Positions 11,888 through 64,000 of a DNA stretch of 64,000 nucleotides are shown here, in pieces. Every line of letters starts with the position of its first letter. Within the stretch, counting starts at the first letter, position 1. The stretch is from positions 32,001-96,000 of IMG/VR virus record IMGVR_UViG_3300010885_023630; one strand, written 5' to 3'. The DNA comes from a virus. Position numbers and translations under genes: made by a program. A model generated the notes under the pieces. The model was not told the origin of the DNA. It saw only the letters and a program-made list of their open reading frames with translations, and ran no database searches.

Positions 11888-13657
11888 ATGTTTAAAATAA
11901 AAACTCTAACGGTTAAAAACTTTATGAGTGTAGGCAATACTACACAAGCGGTTGATTTTGATCGACGTGACTTAACACTGGTTTTGGGCGAAAATTTAGA
12001 CTTAGGAGGAGACGACTCCGGCGCACGAAACGGTACAGGTAAAACAACTATTATCAACGCATTGAGCTATGCCCTGTACGGTAACGCCCTTACTAATATT
12101 AAAAAAGACAATTTGATCAATAAGACCAATACCAAAGGCATGATGGTTACTATTGATTTTGAAAAAGAAGGAGAATTATATCGTATTGAGCGTGGGCGTA
12201 AACCTAACATAATGAAATTTTGGGTCGGTGATAACGAAAAAGAAATCACTGATGACGCACAAGGTGACAGCAGAGAAACACAAGCAGACATTGAACGTAT
12301 GCTAGGCATGAGCCACGACATGTTCAAACATATTGTAGCTCTTAACACCTACACTGAACCTTTTCTTGCCCTTAAAGCAAACGATCAGCGTACCATCATT
12401 GAACAATTATTGGGCATTACACTACTAAGCGAAAAAGCCGATCGTCTTAAAGAACAAAACAAAGCAACTAAAGATGCTATTACACAAGAAGAGTTTCGTA
12501 TTAAAGCTGTTGGTGATGCCAACAAGCGTATTGAAGAACAAATCGAAGCACTTAAACGTAGACAAACAATGTGGATCAATAAACATGCTGAAGATACAGG
12601 GAAATTACAAACCGCTCTCAGTGAGCTACTCAAAATTGATATTGATGCGGAAATTGCGGCACACAAGGCTCTTGCTGAATATAAGTCAAAGAAGAAAGAT
12701 ATCACTGATTTATCATCCTATATTTCACGATGCGAACAGGACGAAGTACGTGAAAATCGGCTTATTGAAAAGCTCAGGAAAGACATTGCGGCACTCAAAG
12801 ACCATAAGTGTCACTCCTGCGGGCAAGATCTCCACGACGAAAAACACGAGTCTAATTTAACCAGCAAGAAAAAAGAGCTACAAGAAGCTGCATTACAAGC
12901 ACTATCTACAAACACGCAGTGGATGGAACTCACAGATGCGCTTAAAGAGCTAGGCGAGCTAGGCGTTAAACCAGAAACGTTTTACGACAAAGAAGAAGAT
13001 GCTATCCATCATCGTAGTACGTTAGCTAACTTACAGCAACAAATTGAAACCAAGTCCACAGAACAAGATCCGTACCAAGAACAAATTCAAGAAATGTCAG
13101 AACAGGCACTAGAGGAAATTAGCTTTGACCTTATTAATGAACTTACAAATGTCAAGGATCATCAAGAGTTCTTGTTAAAACTATTAACAAACAAGGATAG
13201 TTTTATCCGCAAACGAATTATTGATCAGAATTTAAGTTATTTAAATGCCCGCTTGGGACAATACCTGGACCGTATTGGCTTACCACACACAGTTAAGTTT
13301 AACAACGACTTGACTGTAGCCATTACAGAATTAGGTAGAGATCTAGACTTCGACAACTTGAGTCGTGGAGAACGTAACCGCTTGATTTTATCCTTGAGTT
13401 GGGCGTTCCGCGATGTTTGGGAAAGCCTATATCAACCCATTAACTTGTTGTTCATTGACGAGTTAGTAGACAGCGGTATGGATAGTTCCGGAGTTGAAAA
13501 CTCTTTAGCTATCCTAAAAAAGATGAGTCGTGAAGCTAACAAGTCAATTTGGTTAGTGTCACACAAGGATGAGCTAGCGGGTCGTGTCAACAATACACTA
13601 CACGTAGTTAAAGAAAATGGATTTACAAGTTACAACACCGACGTCGACATTGCTTAA
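11888..13657 (+). CDS. gp46: Recombination ATPase subunit (Rad50/SbcC-like)
   Basis: Walker A NGTGKTT, zinc hook CHSC, signature LSRGE, Walker B LLFIDE, SH loop. Confidence 0.93.
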   Translation: MFKIKTLTVKNFMSVGNTTQAVDFDRRDLTLVLGENLDLGGDDSGARNGTGKTTIINALSYALYGNALTNIKKDNLINKTNTKGMMVTIDFEKEGELYRIERGRKPNIMKFWVGDNEKEITDDAQGDSRETQADIERMLGMSHDMFKHIVALNTYTEPFLALKANDQRTIIEQLLGITLLSEKADRLKEQNKATKDAITQEEFRIKAVGDANKRIEEQIEALKRRQTMWINKHAEDTGKLQTALSELLKIDIDAEIAAHKALAEYKSKKKDITDLSSYISRCEQDEVRENRLIEKLRKDIAALKDHKCHSCGQDLHDEKHESNLTSKKKELQEAALQALSTNTQWMELTDALKELGELGVKPETFYDKEEDAIHHRSTLANLQQQIETKSTEQDPYQEQIQEMSEQALEEISFDLINELTNVKDHQEFLLKLLTNKDSFIRKRIIDQNLSYLNARLGQYLDRIGLPHTVKFNNDLTVAITELGRDLDFDNLSRGERNRLILSLSWAFRDVWESLYQPINLLFIDELVDSGMDSSGVENSLAILKKMSREANKSIWLVSHKDELAGRVNNTLHVVKENGFTSYNTDVDIA

Positions 13658-14609
13658 TTATCGACGCATTCATATTGAGTTGAGCAGTAAGTGTACATTA
13701 AAGTGTCCGCGCTGTCCGCGAACGGAGTTACAGCCCGAACAACTTAACAGAGAAATTAGTTTGTTTGAGTTTCAACGTGCGTTTAGTTCTGACATACTTA
13801 AAGACATACAGGAAATAACATTCTGTGGTGATGTAGGAGATCCTATATATGCTCGAGACTTTTTACGTATTGTAGAATATATCAAGAAGTCGCGTTTTAA
13901 TATCAGTTTGATTATTGTTACTAACGGTAGTTACAAATCTGAGCTGTGGTGGCAAGAGTTGGGTATGTACCTGCGTTACAATGATAAAGTTACGTTTAGT
14001 GTGGATGGGTGGGATCAAGTCAGCAACGAACAATATCGTGTCAATTCGGACTTTGATAGTATAGTTGCTGGCGCTCGTGCGTTGAGAAAAGTAACTCGAG
14101 CGCAGATGAATTGGTCTGCTATCTATTTTAAATTTAACGAAAGTAAAATGCACTGGATACAGGACCTCGCACGTGATTTGGGGTTCGATACCTTTGAGTC
14201 TGTGCTAAGTTCAAAAGTTGATGGTAGATATTTAATCAACGGAGTAGATCCACTAAAGCCATCCAATGGCTACGTTGCTGGTACTAGCCGGTACGAAGTT
14301 AAAACAGAAAAACTTAATGGCAAGGTACCTATTGTATTTTACGACAAGGTAGATCGTCATCCCTGGGCCAAATGTATGAACTGGGAAAAGGAAATGTTTA
14401 TTAATGTAGACGGATTGGTATTTCCTTGTCCCTGGTTTAATAGTGGCTACTTAGAAAACGATTTTGTAGATAAGCATAGAGATAAAATTAATATTAAAAC
14501 TAGAACACTAAAAGAAATCTTAGCAGATCCTCTGTGGGAAGAACTACACACACGATTTGCTGTGGGCCCATTAGAGATTTGTCGATTAAAATGCGAGAGC
14601 TGTCAATGA
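13650..14609 (+). CDS. Radical SAM enzyme with C-terminal SPASM/twitch domain
   Basis: CTLKCPRC motif; C-terminal C...INVDGLVFPC...CRLKC. Start uncertain (TTG 13650 or ATG 13617). Confidence 0.85.
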   Translation: MLNYRRIHIELSSKCTLKCPRCPRTELQPEQLNREISLFEFQRAFSSDILKDIQEITFCGDVGDPIYARDFLRIVEYIKKSRFNISLIIVTNGSYKSELWWQELGMYLRYNDKVTFSVDGWDQVSNEQYRVNSDFDSIVAGARALRKVTRAQMNWSAIYFKFNESKMHWIQDLARDLGFDTFESVLSSKVDGRYLINGVDPLKPSNGYVAGTSRYEVKTEKLNGKVPIVFYDKVDRHPWAKCMNWEKEMFINVDGLVFPCPWFNSGYLENDFVDKHRDKINIKTRTLKEILADPLWEELHTRFAVGPLEICRLKCESCQ

Positions 14610-15865
14610 GTAATGTATTTTGTAATATTCCTTGGGTAGAAGTCCATATCAATGCAGATGGGACTTACCATACCTGCGGCGCACAAACCAATCGTATCAG
14701 TGGCACAGAAGAAGCTAAACTGTACAATGTACACAACATGACTATTCCTGCGTGGATCAACAGCGAGCATCAGCGCAGGGCTAGGATTAATAAACTTAAT
14801 AACATACCTGAGTCTGCTTGTGCTATGTGTTATCACGAAGAAAGTTTAGGTAGTAGTAGTAAGCGAGTTAAAGAAAATTTAAAAAGCGGCATTACTGAAA
14901 ACAATTTTGAACTTACATTTATACACAGTAAAGACTATCCCTTGTTTGATTATTCGGCACGTAACAAAGGCTTAACTGATTTTGATCGTCCTACCAGCTA
15001 TCATTTAAGTTTAGGTAACGAATGTAATTTGGCCTGTAAAATGTGTGGGCCTACTGCTAGTAGTCGACTGGCTGTACAAATGATCAAAGAAGGTACATAT
15101 TCTGGCCCGGCACGTATGAACTGGACCGAAGACGAAACAGCGTGGAATCACGTAGTAGACTACATTTGCACTACCGAAAACCTAAAGTTTGTACACCTAA
15201 TAGGCGGGGAACCATTGATGAATCCTCGCTTCGAACAGTTGATAGATAGGCTTTTAGCAGCCAAAAAGACAGATATTTACTTAGGGTTTACTACCAACGG
15301 CACTATGTTTAACCACAATTTAATGACTAAATTATCGGCATTTAGGCACGTAGATGTAGGAGTTAGCATAGAGTGTTGGGGCGAATTAAACGACCTAGTA
15401 AGGCAAGGTTCTACTACACAAACCGTGCTAGATAACATAGATCAGTACTTGAAATACCGTCGACAGGCACACATTTACGTTACGCTACGGGCAGTACCTA
15501 GCGCACTTACAGTACACACGCTAGACGAATTGTATAAGTGGTGTATTACTCGCGAGCTAGATGTGGTAACTAATATATTGGTAGAACCCGAATATCAACA
15601 GATATCGCAACTACCAAAAGAAATTAAAGAACGGTTAATAGCACGTTATGAGCTATGGCAACATAGCGAGCCAGCACCTGCTGACAGTAATCCTAGAGAC
15701 CCAACTTGGTTTAAACAACATATCGATAACGAAATTATGGCAATCATCATGGCACTCAAACAAGAACCCGAACACAATTTAACTGATGAACTTTACGATA
15801 AACTTGAACTTTGGGGTTGGTTTGACCACCCAGAGGTGAAAAAATATTTCTTCATATGCGATTAA
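14606..15865 (+). CDS. Radical SAM enzyme with N-terminal twitch/SPASM domain
   Basis: N-terminal CNIPW...DG.YHTC...CAMC, then CNLACKMC, GGEP and TTNGT. ATGA overlap with the upstream gene. Confidence 0.85.
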   Translation: MSNVFCNIPWVEVHINADGTYHTCGAQTNRISGTEEAKLYNVHNMTIPAWINSEHQRRARINKLNNIPESACAMCYHEESLGSSSKRVKENLKSGITENNFELTFIHSKDYPLFDYSARNKGLTDFDRPTSYHLSLGNECNLACKMCGPTASSRLAVQMIKEGTYSGPARMNWTEDETAWNHVVDYICTTENLKFVHLIGGEPLMNPRFEQLIDRLLAAKKTDIYLGFTTNGTMFNHNLMTKLSAFRHVDVGVSIECWGELNDLVRQGSTTQTVLDNIDQYLKYRRQAHIYVTLRAVPSALTVHTLDELYKWCITRELDVVTNILVEPEYQQISQLPKEIKERLIARYELWQHSEPAPADSNPRDPTWFKQHIDNEIMAIIMALKQEPEHNLTDELYDKLELWGWFDHPEVKKYFFICD

Positions 15866-15879
15866 GATAACTAGTATGC

Positions 15880-16308
15880 ATGACTTGGCTTTACGAAACT
15901 TCCACTATAGAAACCTTACCAGAGGACTGTATCGGATTTGTTTATTTGATTACAAATAACATTTCTGGCAGGAAGTATATTGGAAAAAAATTAGCCAAGT
16001 TTAGTAAAACAACATACAAAGTAGTTAAATTAAAAAACGGCAAGAAGAAGCGTAAAAAAATCAAAGGCAAAATTGACTCTGATTGGCAAACCTATTACGG
16101 CTCAAATATTGAACTCAATCGAGACGTAACAGCATTAGGCGAGGAAAACTTTACAAGAGAAATATTATTCTACTGTAAAAGCAAAGCAGAATGTAGTTAC
16201 ATTGAAGCAAGAGAACAATTTTCACACAAAGTGTTAGAATCTGACGACTATTATAACGGACATATACAAGTCCGTGTACATGGCTCTCATATTAAAAACA
16301 AACTCTGA
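15880..16308 (+). CDS. Stand-alone GIY-YIG (Seg-like) nuclease with a Lys-rich insert
   Basis: GFVYLITN...KYIGKK, W..YYGS, IEARE and YYNG motifs; no C-terminal DNA-binding domain. Confidence 0.8.
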   Translation: MTWLYETSTIETLPEDCIGFVYLITNNISGRKYIGKKLAKFSKTTYKVVKLKNGKKKRKKIKGKIDSDWQTYYGSNIELNRDVTALGEENFTREILFYCKSKAECSYIEAREQFSHKVLESDDYYNGHIQVRVHGSHIKNKL

Positions 16309-16330
16309 CATAAAGTCATTTCCCATTATA

Positions 16331-16700
16331 CAGTAGTAGGCTAGCGCAGGCTAAACTTCATGCGCCTATGACAACAGGACCTCGGGTCGCTGGGACGGAA
16401 ATCTCTTTGCTGTAAAAGAGTGCTTAACCACTATCCTTAACAGGACGAGGATCGCTAATTGCCGCGGTTTGGTTATTTGAAGAAATGAATAAGGCTGAAA
16501 AGACGCTCAAGCGATTGAGCACGGTTAATGCGTATGTTAGCGTATATGTATTAATCCGCCGTTGTAAAGACACAACTCGAGGTACCGGACAACCGCCTCT
16601 GTAATGTTGTAACGCTAAGTGACTGTGCTACTCGGATAATGCTACAGAACAATCTTTGCCCTTGAGCGGGCAAAGTGTGACCAATTAATCTGGATAATAC
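16331..16700 (+). ncRNA. Candidate large structured non-coding RNA (unassigned family)
   Basis: ORF-free, with consecutive stems: 16344-48/16361-65, 16375-81/16385-92, 16403-08/16415-20, 16425-30/16470-75, 16505-10/16515-20 (GCGA loop), 16523-36/16543-56, 16579-82/16596-99, 16654-61/16668-75. Loop 16537-43 is complementary to 16612-18. Boundaries are approximate. Confidence 0.65.
16619..16698 (+). repeat. Duplicated bipartite motif GTGAC-N9-YGGATAAT (period 58 nt)
   Basis: GTGAC tgtgctact CGGATAAT (16619-16640) and GTGAC caattaatc TGGATAAT (16677-16698). Confidence 0.75.
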
Positions 16701-16732
16701 TAAAAAACAACAATATTAAATCAAAGAAAAAA

Positions 16733-16836
16733 TGTTGTGAGCGTAAGCGAAACAACAGACTTACGTAGTAAGTCTTAAATGAATCATACAATCACAGAGA
16801 TACTTAATATGTTCCTTGCGAACATATGATTCATTT
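16733..16836. other. Cluster of inverted repeats / hairpins at a convergent gene junction
   Basis: TGTTG..GC-GTAA-GC..CAACA (16733-57), AGACTTAC-GTA-GTAAGTCT (16757-75), and AAATGAATCA...TGATTCATTT enclosing or competing with ATATGTTC-N5-GAACATAT. Confidence 0.6.
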
Positions 16837-16854
16837 TCTTAGATAAACACTAGA

Positions 16855-17088
16855 TTATTTGTTTTTCCAGATGCCATATAGAACCCAAATTGCTACGAGT
16901 CCTACTAGTCCTTGACTACCAATTGCGGCAATGATTGAAGTAACATTTGCTGTTACGGATACTGCCGGGAAGAATGGTATTGCCATACCCTTGAATAAAA
17001 TTTCTAATACAATAGCTAGGGCTATAATGCTTACACCCACATCTGCTAATGTGTTAGACCATTTCTTAATTTGAGTTAAGATTTCCAT
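16855..17088 (-). CDS. Small two-TM membrane protein (late-expressed)
   Basis: Two hydrophobic segments; strong AAGGAG RBS; late promoter at 17130-17135. Confidence 0.75.
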   Translation of the reverse strand: MEILTQIKKWSNTLADVGVSIIALAIVLEILFKGMAIPFFPAVSVTANVTSIIAAIGSQGLVGLVAIWVLYGIWKNK

Positions 17089-17201
17089 TTTACGTCTCCT
17101 TTTAAAAACCAGTATTGCTACCGGTAAGTTATTTAGGTACCGGTTTGCAAAAATAGTAAGCTATTATTATACTTTTAACTAAGATGATACTTATTGTACC
17201 T

Positions 17202-17429
17202 CTAGAAAAATGGTAAACCTGACTCTTTAGTGGTTTCCATATTCTTTTTAATGATGTCTTTGATAAGGTCTCGTTCTTGATCGGACAACATTAACGCATC
17301 GTCATAGCTTAACCCGCCACGCATGTGCCAGCTAAAACTTAATGCTTCGTGTCTTATGGCTTTTGACTCTGAATCAAATTTATTTAGATACTCAACCACA
17401 CCCTCGCGGTCAAGAGTCAAAAGCCTCAT
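17202..17429 (-). CDS. gp51: Baseplate hub assembly protein gp51-like
   Basis: WHMRGGLSYDDALMLS..ER motif; ATGA-coupled to gp26. Confidence 0.55.
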   Translation of the reverse strand: MRLLTLDREGVVEYLNKFDSESKAIRHEALSFSWHMRGGLSYDDALMLSDQERDLIKDIIKKNMETTKESGLPFF

Positions 17430-18265
17430 GCGAAAAAACTTGCGTAATTAAAATCCAACGGAACATCGTATGCGTGTTCACATTTAGTACACTTTGCGTT
17501 AACAGGTTTAACACTAGCAGATTGGTTAATTACAGTTAAACGCTTTTGTATTTCTTTCATTACCTTGTAGTCAGACATATCAAAGTATTCTTTGATAAAC
17601 GCAGGGTCCGTAACAACTACACCTTCTTCTGTTGTGATTGAGCGTGTGCTACTGGCGCAAATTTCAATGTTTAAATCCACTAACTTTTTTAAGTATGCGT
17701 CGGATTTTGATTTCTTTTCTTCGTCTGGGATAGCGTCGTCGGTAACTGTGCGTAATATTTGCTGTTCTGTAAAAGCAATTTGATTTACGCGATTAACTTC
17801 AAAATATGGTTGTGGGCGTAGTACAATTTTTAAACCGTCGAACTCAACTGGGGTTTCATAATCGGGCATGGCAATTTGATCTACTAGACTGCTTAATGCT
17901 ACACCAAACCTGTTGTCTTCTTCACAAGCAGGACAAACACTATCAAATTCCATTTCAGCGCCGTAACTGGCGATGCGTATGTTTAGCAAAATAACGTCTA
18001 CGTCGATACTAGGCATTGACCACGCATCTTTAATGTTTGGGCAACAGCTTTGTATAACATCGACTACACCTTGTCCGTTCATTAGTGCGTCTGGTGTACG
18101 AATAGTAATTTCGTCACGAGCTGTCATTGGATACACAGGAATTTCCCCAGTAACTGGTAAGTCTAAACTACCCTCGGGCCAGAATCTGCCGTTTGATGGT
18201 AGTTTAATATAAGTTGCTGGCTGTCTAAAGTGTTTGAACAGCGGATTATTTGGTTTTTGTTCCAT
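17426..18265 (-). CDS. gp26: Baseplate hub assembly protein gp26-like
   Basis: PVYPMTARDE, DVDVILLNIRIASYG, two CxxC pairs, C-terminal SFFA. Confidence 0.8.
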   Translation of the reverse strand: MEQKPNNPLFKHFRQPATYIKLPSNGRFWPEGSLDLPVTGEIPVYPMTARDEITIRTPDALMNGQGVVDVIQSCCPNIKDAWSMPSIDVDVILLNIRIASYGAEMEFDSVCPACEEDNRFGVALSSLVDQIAMPDYETPVEFDGLKIVLRPQPYFEVNRVNQIAFTEQQILRTVTDDAIPDEEKKSKSDAYLKKLVDLNIEICASSTRSITTEEGVVVTDPAFIKEYFDMSDYKVMKEIQKRLTVINQSASVKPVNAKCTKCEHAYDVPLDFNYASFFA

Positions 18266-62904: not shown

Positions 62905-63005
62905 ATAGCTATTTAAGTCAAACCTTCCCAAAGGCTCCTGTAAACGGCATCATTTTGAACCTTTAGAATAAATAACTTTAACATGTATTATAAAGGAAAA
63001 TAACC

Positions 63006-64000
63006 ATGGCACTAGTATCCCCAGGAATTCAAATTTCCGTAAACGATCAGAGTCAGTACGTTAACAGTAACGTAGGATCTGTACCATTAGTAGTACTAGC
63101 AACAGCTCAAGATAAGACCTATAACGGCCAAATGGCTACAGGAACTACTAAAGCAAATGCTGGAAAATTAATGAGCTTTACAAGTCAACGAGACTTAGTA
63201 ACAGCGATGGGAACACCTACTTTCCAACTTAGCGCCGCTGGCACACCATTACACGGTAACGAACTAAACGAATACGGTTTGTTAGCCGCTTACTCGGCAT
63301 TAGGCCTAACTAACCAGTTATATGCTATCCGCGCCGACATAGATTTAAATCAATTAACAGGTACAAGTAACCGCCCAATTGGTATGCCAATTGACGGACA
63401 GTATTGGTTAGATACTGCCAATAGCGAATTTGGTCTATACGAATTAGCAACTAACGCAACAACGTTAGCACAAGGATTTTCCCATATTGATCCTTTGGAA
63501 ATTACAGATTCAAAACAAGTATCAAACGACAATGCTTATGCTTATGCCGTTCCAACTCCTCTTGCTAGTGTGGGACAAGTTGGTAGCTATGCTTTAGTTC
63601 TAGTTAATACAGACGGAACAACAGCAACTACAATTCGTTTGTTTTACAAAGCAACATCAACATCGGTTGCTGGATTATCTAATTCTTGGGTACAAGTTGG
63701 TTCTACTGCTTGGCAAAAAACTCGCCCAGTGGCAACTGGTACTACTGCCAGCCCAACAATTCCGTTAGGAAGTATTTTAACTTTTGCTAACTACAGCCCA
63801 ATTACAACTACAAGTAACACAACAGTTTCTGGATTAGCAACAGACATTAACAACGCGGCTATTCCGGGTGTATTTGCCAACGTAGACAGCACAGGTCACT
63901 TGATGCTGTTTGTAACTAGTGCTGCAAAGAGCGCAGGTAATAGTGCTACAGCCGACGGTAAAATTACAATTACTTCATTCTTATCTAACACAGGTGCTAA
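63006..64000 (+). CDS. gp18: Tail sheath protein (5' part, runs off the window)
   Basis: Manual translation MALVSPGIQISVNDQSQY...TSQRDLV...GTP.F...HGNELNEYGLLAAYSALG; AAGGA RBS; late promoter 62969-74. Confidence 0.9.
   Translation, partial: MALVSPGIQISVNDQSQYVNSNVGSVPLVVLATAQDKTYNGQMATGTTKANAGKLMSFTSQRDLVTAMGTPTFQLSAAGTPLHGNELNEYGLLAAYSALGLTNQLYAIRADIDLNQLTGTSNRPIGMPIDGQYWLDTANSEFGLYELATNATTLAQGFSHIDPLEITDSKQVSNDNAYAYAVPTPLASVGQVGSYALVLVNTDGTTATTIRLFYKATSTSVAGLSNSWVQVGSTAWQKTRPVATGTTASPTIPLGSILTFANYSPITTTSNTTVSGLATDINNAAIPGVFANVDSTGHLMLFVTSAAKSAGNSATADGKITITSFLSNTGA

What the first reader, a model, noticed from the sequence alone, without database searches (positions are those of the whole stretch)
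15880..16854. Minimal GIY-YIG nuclease followed by a large, pseudoknotted candidate ncRNA
Seen: the largest ORF-free gap (~545 nt) in an otherwise tightly packed window starts at the nuclease stop. It is GC-richer than other spacers and is tiled by at least eight stems, including multibranch junctions and a GCTCAA-GCGA-TTGAGC GNRA hairpin. A 14-bp stem with four G-U pairs (16523-56) has a loop, TTAGCGT, that is perfectly complementary to ACGCTAA (16612-18), i.e. a long-range pseudoknot. The G-U pairs and GNRA loop work only on the + strand, the same strand as the nuclease, and no terminator separates gene and RNA. The 142-aa protein has only the catalytic domain plus a KLKNGKKKRKKIKGK insert. 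Known: Seg and I-TevI-type GIY-YIG homing enzymes normally carry a separate DNA-recognition domain, and IscB/TnpB nucleases use an adjacent structured RNA for targeting. Inference: this may be an undescribed nuclease-RNA ribonucleoprotein (RNA-guided or RNA-regulated), or a new large phage ncRNA/ribozyme class. I do not recognise it as tRNA, tmRNA, RNase P or a group I/II intron.
Basis: partly seen in the sequence, partly recalled or inferred. Interest (0 to 1): 0.9.

Follow-up and report, generated by a model that had tools for sequence, protein, structure and literature searches.

The report
Twin-box phage RNA beside small nuclease
The gene-free stretch behind a small DNA-cutting-enzyme gene of this uncultured freshwater T4-like phage encodes a real, knotted non-coding RNA of about 440 bases; its first third is a catalogued orphan motif, the rest carries one 7-letter word twice, and its job is still unknown.

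Summary
16309-16854 is the largest ORF-free gap in the window. It contains a + strand RNA of about 440 nt (16339 to about 16780).

- **Known part.** 16339-16478 is a full-length Rfam RF01718 Polynucleobacter-1 match (102.5 bits against a cut-off of 37). This motif is catalogued but has no known function.
- **Twin boxes.** Two heptamers 58 nt apart (16634-40 and 16692-98) are identical in 124 of 128 related sequences, across 11 different words and at least 55 inferred switches. I found no complementary partner nearby.
- **Linkage to the nuclease.** All 71 judgeable nuclease loci carry such an RNA downstream. Of 101 RNA loci, 94 have the nuclease upstream.
- **Limits of that linkage.** Some loci carry a PD-(D/E)XK nuclease instead. 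Cultured phages have the nuclease family without the RNA.

The most likely reading is an RNA gene in its own right. A nuclease-RNA complex is neither shown nor excluded. This scan had already found this "twin-box" RNA family on other DNA.

The parts
15880..16308 (+). Gene for a 142-aa GIY-YIG nuclease that has only the catalytic domain plus a long basic beta-hairpin insert (residues about 40-66)
   Evidence: PF19835 E 5.7e-32. GFVY, YIGK, R93, E109 and N126 are invariant in 29 relatives. AF2 pLDDT 93.1. The only meaningful Foldseek match is the I-TevI catalytic domain 1mk0 (prob 0.97, TMt 0.65). Single copy in the 127-kb record.
16305..16334 (+). Weak sigma-70-like promoter match (CTGACA, 18 nt, TACAGT) just before the RNA start; doubtful
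   Evidence: 4 promoter-like sites in the region against 5.2 expected, so not above chance. In many relatives the RNA starts within a few nt of the stop codon.
16339..16478 (+). 5' domain: full-length Rfam RF01718 Polynucleobacter-1 motif
   Evidence: 102.5 bits against a gathering score of 37, E 4.6e-23, model positions 1-141 of 141.
16505..16520 (+). GNRA-capped hairpin (GCTCAA GCGA TTGAGC)
   Evidence: 5 of 6 pairs change on both sides (helix 1).
16523..16556 (+). Long hairpin whose loop (16537-43) is the 5' strand of the pseudoknot
   Evidence: 12 of 13 pairs change on both sides, 86.5% of cells paired, and many G-U cells fix the strand as + (helix 2).
16572..16610 (+). Nested helices 16572-76/16606-10, 16579-82/16596-99 and 16586-88/16593-95 around the near-invariant GGTACCGGACAACCGCCTC (16581-99)
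   Evidence: Outer helix: 4 of 5 pairs change on both sides. Inner helices are nearly invariant (helices 4-6). The motif found 120+ viral contigs.
16612..16618 (+). 3' strand of the pseudoknot (ACGCTAA), pairing with 16537-43
   Evidence: 7 of 7 pairs change on both sides, 96.3% paired (helix 3). Alignment-free test: 6.66 against 5.66 bp.
16619..16646 (+). Twin-box unit 1: GTGAC, a variable 6-mer, ACTC, then box GGATAAT (16634-40) in a hairpin loop closed by 16624-29/16641-46
   Evidence: Flank complementarity within a sequence exceeds that between sequences, z 4.2.
16654..16675 (+). 8-bp hairpin between the two units (CTTTGCCC TTGAGC GGGCAAAG)
   Evidence: Conserved, with GCCC/GGGC in one subtype replaced by CACCG/CGGTG in the other.
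16677..16700 (+). Twin-box unit 2: GTGAC, a variable 6-mer, ATCT, then box GGATAAT (16692-98); apparently single-stranded
   Evidence: The box is identical to box 1 in 124 of 128 sequences. Position-by-position identity is 0.97-0.99 although those columns carry about 1 bit of entropy. No flank pairing.
16701..16732 (+). A-rich linker of variable length
16733..16757 (+). 3' hairpin 1: a co-varying stem around the conserved loop GAGCG-N-GCGAAA
   Evidence: High mutual-information Watson-Crick columns and alignments.
16758..16776 (+). 3' hairpin 2 (GACTTAC GTA GTAAGTC) followed by TTAAAT; probable 3' end or terminator shared with the convergent genes
   Evidence: The strongest Watson-Crick covariation in the whole alignment: 16760-64 with 16768-72. 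Scored as terminator-like on the - strand. Conservation ends near 16790.
16855..17088 (-). Convergent 77-aa gene (context only, not part of the RNA)
   Evidence: No Pfam or PHROG family.

Best explanation
16339 to about 16780 (+) is the gene for a long, multi-domain, pseudoknotted non-coding RNA of a family shared by hundreds of uncultured freshwater T4-like phages.

- Layout: a variable 5' domain (here the RF01718 type), a pseudoknotted core, a module that displays the same heptamer twice (once in a hairpin loop, once single-stranded), and two 3' hairpins.
- Expression (inferred): it is most likely transcribed with, or just behind, the upstream nuclease gene and ends at the last hairpin.
- Action (inferred): it works in trans as a scaffold or decoy. 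Its two boxes bind two copies, or two identical sites, of a sequence-specific reader that is not encoded next to it.
- The neighbour: the GIY-YIG gene is a conserved, probably dimeric, I-TevI-type catalytic-domain nuclease that shares the operon or locus but does not depend on the RNA.
- Status: the RNA, its fold, the twin boxes and the linkage are shown.
For: - The RNA is real: Rfam hit; covariation of five helices and the pseudoknot; alignment-free pseudoknot test; 3' hairpins; G-U cells and the Rfam hit fix the + strand.
- Twin boxes are under selection:
  - They are identical in 124 of 128 sequences, with 11 words.
  - On an RNA tree built without the boxes, the word changes at least 55 times (positions 1, 5 and 7 at least 26, 20 and 15 times).
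  - The adjacent CTC and TCT stay different in all 128 sequences, which argues against gene conversion.
- The module is the constant part:
  - RF01718 matched 3 of 3 subtype-A loci and L056, but 0 of 5 subtype-B, 0 of 6 subtype-C and 0 of 5 nuclease-less loci.
  - Subtypes B and C still carry the twin boxes.
- The RNA is independent of the GIY-YIG protein:
  - 7 of 101 judgeable RNA loci lack it. Five of the 7 have a PD-(D/E)XK ORF instead: four by clustering and one by eye, with Pfam PF24608 run on one member.
  - 17 of 101 have a 0.4-1.4 kb spacer between nuclease and RNA.
  - RNA subtype changes 13 times on the nuclease tree against 2 on the RNA tree.
  - No nuclease residue co-varies with the boxes above background.
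  - The protein family is in 463 deposited phage records. In 3 of 3 examined (Melnitz-3, P-HM1, phiN3), no RNA lies within 2.5 kb. The module model found no credible match in the whole records: one 22-bit hit lies in coding-like sequence.
- Contigs from RNA libraries hold the stretch across the gene-RNA border: X15 16220-16380 and X18 16257-16447. This is only weak evidence, because DNA can be present in such libraries.
Against: - A small nuclease gene lies at the RNA in 99 of 101 judgeable loci: 94 GIY-YIG plus 5 PD-(D/E)XK. No related locus shows the RNA directly after gp46 with an empty site. That is tighter than expected for mere neighbours in a region where other genes come and go.
- The nuclease is predicted to form a symmetric homodimer, which would fit two identical boxes.
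  - ipSAE 0.69 against a best control of 0.41.
  - The mark was reached by 20 of 30 proteins solved as pairs and 1 of 23 solved as single chains. These counts hold only roughly because my own alignment was used.
  - The runs agree in 100% of contacts and the partner pLDDT is 90.
- No reader of the boxes was found. There is no complement within -1500 to +1200. The word is not enriched in the 127-kb record: 6 and 10 occurrences against 9.4 and 11.7 expected.
- No discrete transcript has been shown.
- The tree comparisons rest on short sequences and are noisy.
- The cultured-phage test used a model built from freshwater sequences and could miss distant versions.
Confidence: 0.55

Rival explanations
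1. Nuclease-RNA partnership. The RNA and the small dimeric nuclease work together, with one box per protomer. The RNA could aim the nuclease, hold it inactive (as an RNA antitoxin does), or be processed by it. The nuclease module is exchangeable (GIY-YIG or PD-(D/E)XK).
For: - A nuclease gene is present at 99 of 101 judgeable RNA loci.
- The RNA or part of it lies downstream in 71 of 71 judgeable GIY-YIG loci: 63 with the core motif, 6 subtype C, L056, and a cut copy in L022.
- Gene and RNA share a strand with no terminator between them.
- The protein has no DNA-binding domain but has a conserved basic beta-hairpin.
- The homodimer prediction passed:
  - Score 0.69 against a best control of 0.41.
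  - The mark was reached by 20 of 30 proteins solved as pairs and 1 of 23 solved as single chains; these counts are rough because my own alignment was used.
  - Contacts agree 100% and pLDDT is 90.
- Hypervariable 6-8-nt segments sit between conserved boxes. RNA-guided Tas dimers that use dual-spacer guide RNAs are a precedent (abstracts in the listing).
Against: - No nuclease column co-varies with box positions above background: best mutual information 0.29-0.41, the same range as other RNA columns.
- RNA subtype switches 13 times on the nuclease tree.
- Two loci (L087, L145) have the RNA and no nuclease nearby.
- A spacer ORF separates gene and RNA in 17 of 101 loci.
- The protein family occurs without the RNA in the cultured phages examined.
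- Only positions 1, 5 and 7 of the box vary freely, so it is not a free guide.
- A later check of the same idea on other DNA in this scan put the bold reading at 2 in 100 (their figure, which I did not re-derive).
Confidence: 0.2
2. Selfish-nuclease hot spot. The RNA gene is a conserved phage gene. Free-standing homing-type nucleases (the SegE-type GIY-YIG, PD-(D/E)XK, and a GIY-YIG with NUMOD3) settle next to it because its invariant DNA makes a good homing target. The linkage is then genetic and not functional. This is compatible with the best explanation for the RNA itself.
For: - The protein matches homing-endonuclease families: PF19835, several PHROG and PADLOC homing-endonuclease models, and the I-TevI fold.
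- Different nuclease families occupy the same spot.
- A classical GIY-YIG with NUMOD3 (family F19) lies near the RNA in 4 loci.
- The region between gp46 and the RNA is a patchwork of optional genes.
- RNA subtype and flanking context are shuffled: subtype A 36/17 and subtype B 20/30 for the two downstream contexts.
Against: - Homing genes are usually sporadic. Here the site is occupied in 99 of 101 loci, and no empty site was seen in the gp46 context.
- The gene is intact and 71-85% identical over 80 loci, with all catalytic residues kept.
- It is single-copy in this record.
- It is a widespread conserved gene in cyanophage records.
- This reading does not explain the twin boxes.
Confidence: 0.15
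3. Cis element only. The stretch acts in cis as a 3' untranslated region, stabiliser or terminator block for the convergent transcription units, or as a DNA-level site, with no trans-acting RNA product.
For: - It lies between convergent genes and ends in hairpins that score as terminator-like on the - strand.
- Weinberg et al. 2010 marked Polynucleobacter-1 as possibly cis-regulatory (table passage seen).
Against: - About 440 nt with a pseudoknot, long invariant single-stranded blocks and co-evolving twin boxes is far more than a terminator needs.
- There is no downstream + strand gene to regulate.
- G-U covariation shows selection acts on the RNA and not on the DNA duplex.
Confidence: 0.07

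Closest known systems
Polynucleobacter-1 RNA motif (Rfam RF01718; Weinberg et al. 2010, Genome Biol 11:R31, PMC2864571; table passage seen)
   Same: 16339-16478 matches the whole 141-position model at 102.5 bits. The habitat is also fresh water (table entry 'Burkholderiales, fresh water/estuary'; the best DNA holders are freshwater metagenomes). Its function is unknown.
   Different: The Rfam family describes only 141 nt, whereas the transcript unit here is about 440 nt. The uncatalogued 300 nt hold the pseudoknot, the twin boxes and two 3' hairpins. Sister subtypes B and C share that 3' part but have 5' domains that RF01718 does not detect (0 of 11). The paper's tentative 'cis-regulatory' mark does not fit this locus, where no + strand gene follows.
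Large ornate bacterial and phage RNAs of unknown function, such as GOLLD and ROOL
   Same: Several hundred nucleotides, many helices and pseudoknots, phage-borne, no known function.
   Different: No Rfam match to any of them even at E <= 10 in 16250-16900. Twin co-evolving boxes and a fixed nuclease neighbour are not features I recall for them.
Seg and I-TevI type GIY-YIG homing endonucleases (Pfam PF19835; PDB 1mk0)
   Same: The GIY-YIG catalytic core with all signature residues and the I-TevI catalytic-domain fold. Free-standing gene in a T4-like phage.
   Different: - No linker or DNA-binding domain: 142 aa with one Pfam domain.
- A long basic beta-hairpin insert.
- Predicted homodimer.
- Near-universal and not sporadic.
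- The family is often labelled 'NAD synthetase' in records, which looks like a misannotation.
TIGR-Tas dual-spacer guide RNAs (abstracts in the listing, e.g. bioRxiv 10.64898/2026.08.11.744272)
   Same: An RNA unit that presents two short variable segments framed by conserved boxes to a protein dimer. Found in phages.
   Different: - No Nop-domain protein in the 127-kb record (the record is about 36% complete).
- No tandem array: the two units are embedded in one large RNA.
- The boxes co-vary with each other, and the neighbour is a GIY-YIG nuclease.
IscB/TnpB omega-RNAs and HEARO RNA
   Same: A structured RNA next to a compact nuclease gene.
   Different: No RuvC or HNH effector, no Rfam match, and no guide at an RNA end derived from a transposon border. 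The RNA persists with other nuclease families or with none.
Type III toxin-antitoxin RNAs (ToxI-like; recalled)
   Same: Direct repeats in an RNA next to a nuclease gene, so an RNA that holds a nuclease in check is conceivable.
   Different: Only 5 + 7 nt are shared between the two units, not whole repeats. The RNA lies downstream of the gene and not upstream. The protein is a DNA-type GIY-YIG nuclease and not a ToxN-type RNase.

Membership tests
Rfam RF01718 Polynucleobacter-1 | Covariance-model score at or above the curated gathering score | tested here: met
   102.5 bits against 37, E 4.6e-23.
Rfam RF01718 Polynucleobacter-1 | Whole model matched, with its helices | tested here: met
   Model positions 1-141 of 141, not truncated, with the alignment shown.
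Rfam RF01718 Polynucleobacter-1 | Position as a possible 5' leader of a downstream gene (tentative mark in Weinberg 2010) | tested here: not met
   The next gene is on the opposite strand. This was a tentative mark and not a defining rule.
SegE-type GIY-YIG nuclease (PF19835) | Pfam score above cut-off over the full domain | tested here: met
   111 bits against 25, profile positions 1-123 of 123.
SegE-type GIY-YIG nuclease (PF19835) | Catalytic signature GIY, YIG, Arg, Glu, Asn | tested here: met
   G19-F-V-Y22, Y33-I-G35-K, R93, E109 and N126 are invariant in 29 sequences. The assignment of roles is by recalled analogy with I-TevI.
Seg / I-TevI homing endonucleases | Separate C-terminal DNA-recognition domain (NUMOD, zinc finger or helix-turn-helix) | tested here: not met
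   142 aa with a single Pfam domain at residues 3-129. The model shows only the catalytic fold plus a beta-hairpin.
Seg / I-TevI homing endonucleases | Site-specific cutting of a nuclease-free allele and biased inheritance | not testable with these tools
   Needs enzyme and phage crosses.
TIGR-Tas | Tas protein with a Nop domain | tested here: not met
   PF01798 has 0 matches in the 126,980-base record, while controls ring in 4 archaea. The record is about 36% complete.
TIGR-Tas | Tandem array of short repeat-spacer units | tested here: not met
   There are only two units, inside one 440-nt RNA.
IscB/TnpB omega-RNA, HEARO | Match to the RNA family and an adjacent RuvC/HNH effector | tested here: not met
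   No Rfam hit. The neighbours are GIY-YIG and radical SAM genes.
Group I intron carrying a GIY-YIG ORF | Ribozyme core on both sides of the ORF, inside a host gene | tested here: not met
   No intron family appears at E <= 10. Only 14 nt separate the ORF start from the stop of the preceding gene.
tRNA / tmRNA | ARAGORN detection | tested here: not met
   0 genes in the window.
Box C/D or k-turn RNA | Paired UGA and GAU elements giving tandem G-A pairs plus U-U, and an L7Ae or Nop partner | tested here: inconclusive
   The columns that would form U-U, G-A and A-G hold those letters in 118, 124 and 103 of 128 sequences in unit 1. The G is C in some words without compensation. No L7Ae or Nop gene is present in the partial record.
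Template RNA for a reverse transcriptase (flanking direct repeats) | A reverse transcriptase gene | tested here: not met
   PF00078 has 0 matches in the record (partial record).

The most novel reading that the evidence does not exclude
The twin-box RNA is the specificity or control subunit of a two-fold symmetric ribonucleoprotein. Each protomer of a small homodimeric nuclease docks on one of the two identical boxes. The nuclease module can be a GIY-YIG catalytic domain or a PD-(D/E)XK domain. The RNA then either aims the dimer, through the hypervariable 6-8-nt segments beside the boxes, or keeps it silent until infection. This would be a new kind of RNA-dependent DNA nuclease in T4-like phages.
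Probability: 0.1. Interest if true: 0.9.

Novelty: new variant of a known kind. Interest (0 to 1): 0.62.

Why it matters
Large, intricately folded RNAs without a known job are rare, and each has so far pointed to new biochemistry.

- This RNA is abundant in uncultured freshwater T4-like phages. Contigs that hold it reach 346 kb.
- Only its first third is in Rfam.
- Two short words are kept identical through dozens of changes, which implies a bivalent, sequence-specific reader that nobody has identified.
- It almost always travels with a minimal nuclease. If the two work together, it would be a new type of RNA-dependent nuclease. If they do not, it is still a new phage RNA class with a clear and testable handle: the boxes.
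- Practical gains: the full-length family could be added to Rfam, and the neighbouring protein family deserves to lose its 'NAD synthetase' label in phage records.

Tried and rejected
1. Other RNA classes. No tRNA or tmRNA. The remaining Rfam matches in 16250-16900 are far below their cut-offs (U6 21.5 against 44; cow-rumen-2 19.1 against 66), so I rejected them.

2. A cis partner for the boxes.
   - No third copy or exact reverse complement sits at a consistent place within +/-4 kb.
   - No Watson-Crick partner column appears by mutual information.
   - A locus's own word is no more complementary than foreign words to any of 7 regions from -1500 to +1200.

3. Box 1 pairing with the sequence before box 2. 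RNAalifold proposed this. I rejected it because G-to-C changes at 16635 are not compensated.

4. Pairing between the flanks of the two units, or of the unit-2 flanks with each other: none (z from -1.6 to 0.2; tables).

5. Mini-ORF or ribosome-hopping reading of the units (RUG ... NNA-UAA/UGA). Rejected because the spacer in unit 1 varies from 4 to 8 nt, so the frame is not kept.

6. Genome-wide targets: the word is not enriched in the 127-kb record.

7. Protein-RNA co-variation: nothing above background.

8. Bacterial occurrences.
   - The other 45 are chance matches in GC-rich genomes.
   - So I could not verify earlier notes that the RNA lives in bacterial islands.

9. Cultured phages: blastn of 15880-16860 found no deposited phage. 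Sequence search of the PDB with the protein gave nothing meaningful.

10. Read data.
    - All four runs were assembled contigs, so they show no ends, strand or level.
    - None of the three RNA-library runs covers 16734-17100, while the DNA run does. This is no evidence on its own.
    - Shares of the RNA runs were small (0.05-0.09).

11. My MAFFT alignments misregister subtype A against subtype B in the 5' half and in the hairpins 16624-46 and 16654-75. The low paired percentages for those helices (41-79%) are therefore not evidence against them.

12. The module model R1 kept only 2 base pairs, so it is essentially a sequence profile.

13. Literature. 'Polynucleobacter-1' occurs in 1 paper of the library. 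'GIY-YIG' + 'structured RNA' + 'phage' gave 7 papers, none about this RNA by title or abstract. Supplements of Weinberg 2010, which list the motif's gene contexts, were not opened.
Full report
**What is in the window**

The window is bases 32001-96000 of a 126,980-base IMG/VR virus record that CheckV rates as about 36% complete. The genes around the finding are typical of a T4-like myovirus:
- an SbcC/gp46-like ATPase at 11888-13657;
- two radical-SAM/SPASM genes at 13617-15865;
- on the minus strand, a T4 baseplate-type protein at 17426-18265.

The ORF at 15880-16308 encodes 142 aa and matches the whole of Pfam PF19835 (SegE_GIY-YIG, E 5.7e-32). The next ORF of 60 aa or more starts at 16855 on the opposite strand. 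So 16309-16854 (546 nt) is the largest ORF-free gap in the window, and it lies between convergent genes.

**The observation**

- the GNRA hairpin at 16505-20;
- the 14-bp stem 16523-36/16543-56 with four G-U pairs;
- its loop TTAGCGT, which is complementary to ACGCTAA at 16612-18.

The structured part (16335-16700) has GC 0.459, against 0.406 for the window and 0.27-0.33 for ordinary spacers. Folding energy alone is only mildly unusual, with z -2.28 on the + strand and -1.42 on the - strand. The case therefore rests on comparison with relatives.

**A known piece**

Rfam finds one family above threshold in the whole window. RF01718, Polynucleobacter-1, matches at 16339-16478 on the + strand with 102.5 bits (cut-off 37), covering the entire model. 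Weinberg et al. 2010 list this motif as a likely RNA, possibly cis-regulatory, from Burkholderiales and fresh water or estuary. I saw only the table passage, and it is the only paper in the library that names the motif. No function is known. Nothing else in the gap reaches a family's threshold, and ARAGORN finds no tRNA or tmRNA.

**Relatives**

I collected related loci in two ways.
- Searching viral contigs with the nuclease protein gave 523 confirmed relatives. The best 80 (71-85% identical) were kept.

The two sets overlap: there are 35 groups of identical RNA sequence. Together they give 127 distinct RNA sequences besides the window's.

Conservation runs from about 16325 to 16790. Three subtypes share the 3' two-thirds.
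- **Subtype A** (like the window) has the RF01718 domain.
- **Subtypes B and C** have other 5' domains.

Rfam matched 3 of 3 subtype-A loci and L056, but 0 of 5 B, 0 of 6 C and 0 of 5 nuclease-less loci.

**Structure**

I tested a structure on 35 subtype-A sequences (alignment A2).
- 84.4% of cells pair, against 69.3% in shuffles (0 of 500 shuffles reach it) and 35-46% when partners are slid.
- The pseudoknot has 7 of 7 pairs changed on both sides and 96.3% of cells paired.
- The long hairpin has 12 of 13 pairs changed on both sides, the GNRA hairpin 5 of 6, and helix 16572-76/16606-10 has 4 of 5.

An alignment-free test on all 128 sequences gives a mean pseudoknot helix of 6.66 bp. With partners swapped between sequences the mean is 5.66 +/- 0.07.

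The two 3' hairpins (16733-57 and 16758-76) hold the strongest Watson-Crick covariation in the alignment. Many G-U cells, and the Rfam hit, fix the strand as +.

Two helices scored poorly (16624-46 and 16654-75). In both, my alignment is visibly out of register.

**The twin boxes**

The strongest non-Watson-Crick signal links two direct repeats 58 nt apart:
- unit 1, 16619-42: GTGAC, a 6-mer, ACTC, GGATAAT;
- unit 2, 16677-16700: GTGAC, a 6-mer, ATCT, GGATAAT.

The heptamers are identical in 124 of 128 sequences, although 11 different words occur: GGATAAT 27, AGATGAT 22, AGATAAT 19, GGATGAA 19, GGATGAT 15, AGATGAA 12 and five rarer ones.

On a tree built from the RNA without the boxes, the word changes at least 55 times. 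Positions 1, 5 and 7 change at least 26, 20 and 15 times. The tree is noisy, so these are rough minima. The three bases before each box stay CTC and TCT throughout, so gene conversion is an unlikely cause. Selection must keep the words equal.

Unit 1 sits in a hairpin loop, because its flank complementarity gives z 4.2. Unit 2's flanks pair with nothing I tested.

I found no reader:
- no complement within -1500 to +1200;
- no enrichment of the word in the 127-kb record;
- no nuclease residue that tracks the boxes above background.

Each unit also keeps UGA ... GAU, as a tandem G-A/U-U motif would. That remains only an idea.

**Linkage to the nuclease**

- From the nuclease side, 71 of the 80 loci have 450 nt or more downstream. 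Of these 71:
  - 63 hold the core motif;
  - six hold the subtype-C RNA with twin ACATGAA boxes;
  - L056 holds an RF01718 copy with twin boxes;
  - L022 holds a copy cut by the contig end.
- From the RNA side, 101 loci have enough upstream DNA to judge. Of these:
  - 77 have the gene directly upstream;
  - 17 have it behind a 0.4-1.4 kb spacer ORF;
  - 7 lack it.
- Five of those 7 have a 167-176-aa PD-(D/E)XK ORF instead. Four were assigned by clustering and one by eye, and Pfam PF24608 was confirmed on one member.
- Two loci (L087, L145) have no nuclease nearby.

The locus layout is:
- gp47, then gp46;
- a changing set of optional genes;
- the nuclease, sometimes followed by an extra ORF;
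- the RNA;
- one of two sets of convergent genes.

RNA subtype and downstream set are shuffled: subtype A 36/17 and subtype B 20/30.

**The protein**

- GFVY, YIGK, R93, E109 and N126 are invariant in 29 relatives.
- The AlphaFold model is confident (pLDDT 93.1).
- Its only meaningful structural match is the I-TevI catalytic domain (1mk0, prob 0.97, TMt 0.65).
- The lysine-rich insert forms a long beta-hairpin.
- A homodimer through residues 107-142 is predicted.
  - ipSAE is 0.69 against a best control of 0.41.
  - The mark was reached by 20 of 30 proteins solved as pairs and 1 of 23 solved as single chains. These counts are rough because my own alignment was used.
  - The runs agree in 100% of contacts and the partner pLDDT is 90.
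- The gene is single-copy in this record.

The family (phrog_447, oddly named 'NAD synthetase') is in 463 deposited phage records, mostly T4-like cyanophages. In Melnitz-3, P-HM1 and phiN3 no RNA lies within 2.5 kb of the gene. A model of the twin-box module finds nothing credible in those whole records. The one 22-bit hit lies in coding-like sequence, whereas the window's own copy scores 79 bits.

**Expression**

Only assembled contigs were available. Contigs from two RNA libraries span the gene-RNA border (X15 16220-16380; X18 16257-16447). This is compatible with co-transcription but proves nothing, since such libraries can contain DNA. A promoter-like match at 16305-34 is no better than chance.

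**Reading**

The RNA is real and is the main finding. I think it is most likely (0.55) a gene in its own right: a scaffold or decoy that offers two identical words to a bivalent reader encoded elsewhere or supplied by the host. On this reading the nuclease is a conserved neighbour.

A functional nuclease-RNA partnership (0.2) stays open, because the nuclease site is almost never empty and the enzyme looks dimeric. The following points count against it:
- another nuclease family takes the same place in some loci;
- no nuclease residue co-varies with the boxes;
- RNA subtype switches 13 times on the nuclease tree, against 2 on the RNA tree;
- the cultured phages examined have the nuclease but no RNA.

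A homing hot spot (0.15) explains the variety of nucleases but not their near-universal presence. A purely cis element (0.07) does not fit the complexity.

**Earlier notes of this scan**

I found the boxes before opening the notes. The notes report the same RNA family on many other genomes under the name 'twin-box', which I have adopted. They add that it occurs in bacterial islands without a nuclease. I could not confirm this: only 3 of 48 genome hits were real, and these look like phage contigs in MAGs.

Noticed in passing
window 62932-63349: This is the second-largest ORF-free gap in the window (418 nt, GC 0.40). No Rfam family reaches threshold there.
   Followed up: no
window 13617-15865: Two overlapping radical-SAM/SPASM genes (330 and 443 aa) sit between the gp46-like gene and the nuclease. 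Related loci carry 0-3 copies of this family at the same place (family F1).
   Followed up: partly
L012, L058, L069, L072, L075, L078 (about 300-480 nt after the nuclease stop; in L069 and L075 about 250 nt further): A third RNA subtype. Its 5' domains have no RF01718 match and lack the GGTACCGG core motif. It keeps the same twin-box module (ACATGAA twice, 54-56 nt apart) and the same 3' hairpins.
   Followed up: partly
L003, L006, L019 (between the equivalents of window 16604 and 16606): An AT-rich insertion of about 50-60 nt, full of TTATAG-like words, sits inside the RNA core between two helix strands.
   Followed up: no
window 15880-16308 and 463 phage records: This GIY-YIG family (phrog_447) is widely labelled 'NAD synthetase' in deposited phage genomes. 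Given the Pfam match, the conserved catalytic residues and the fold, that looks like a propagated misannotation.
   Followed up: partly
window 16620-22 with 16635-37, and 16678-80 with 16693-95: Each twin-box unit keeps UGA ... GAU, the letters needed for tandem G-A pairs plus a U-U pair, as in k-turn or box C/D motifs. No L7Ae or Nop gene is present in the partial record.
   Followed up: partly
L220 and L229 (contigs of 148 and 183 kb in one Haliscomenobacter MAG), L213: Full-length copies of the RNA lie on large contigs binned into a bacterial MAG (nhmmer E 1e-116 to 1e-123). These are probably phage contigs and not bacterial islands.
   Followed up: no
L181 (about 0.7-1.8 kb upstream of its RNA): A 357-aa ORF begins with a diverged GIY-YIG domain (31% identical) and is followed by a PD-(D/E)XK ORF, so both nuclease types sit in front of one RNA.
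   Followed up: no
L074, L052, L140, L148 (family F19): A classical GIY-YIG homing endonuclease of 214 aa with a weak NUMOD3 match (E 0.0015, 18.9 bits against a 20.4 cut-off) lies close to the RNA in four loci. It is a third kind of nuclease gene at this spot.
   Followed up: partly
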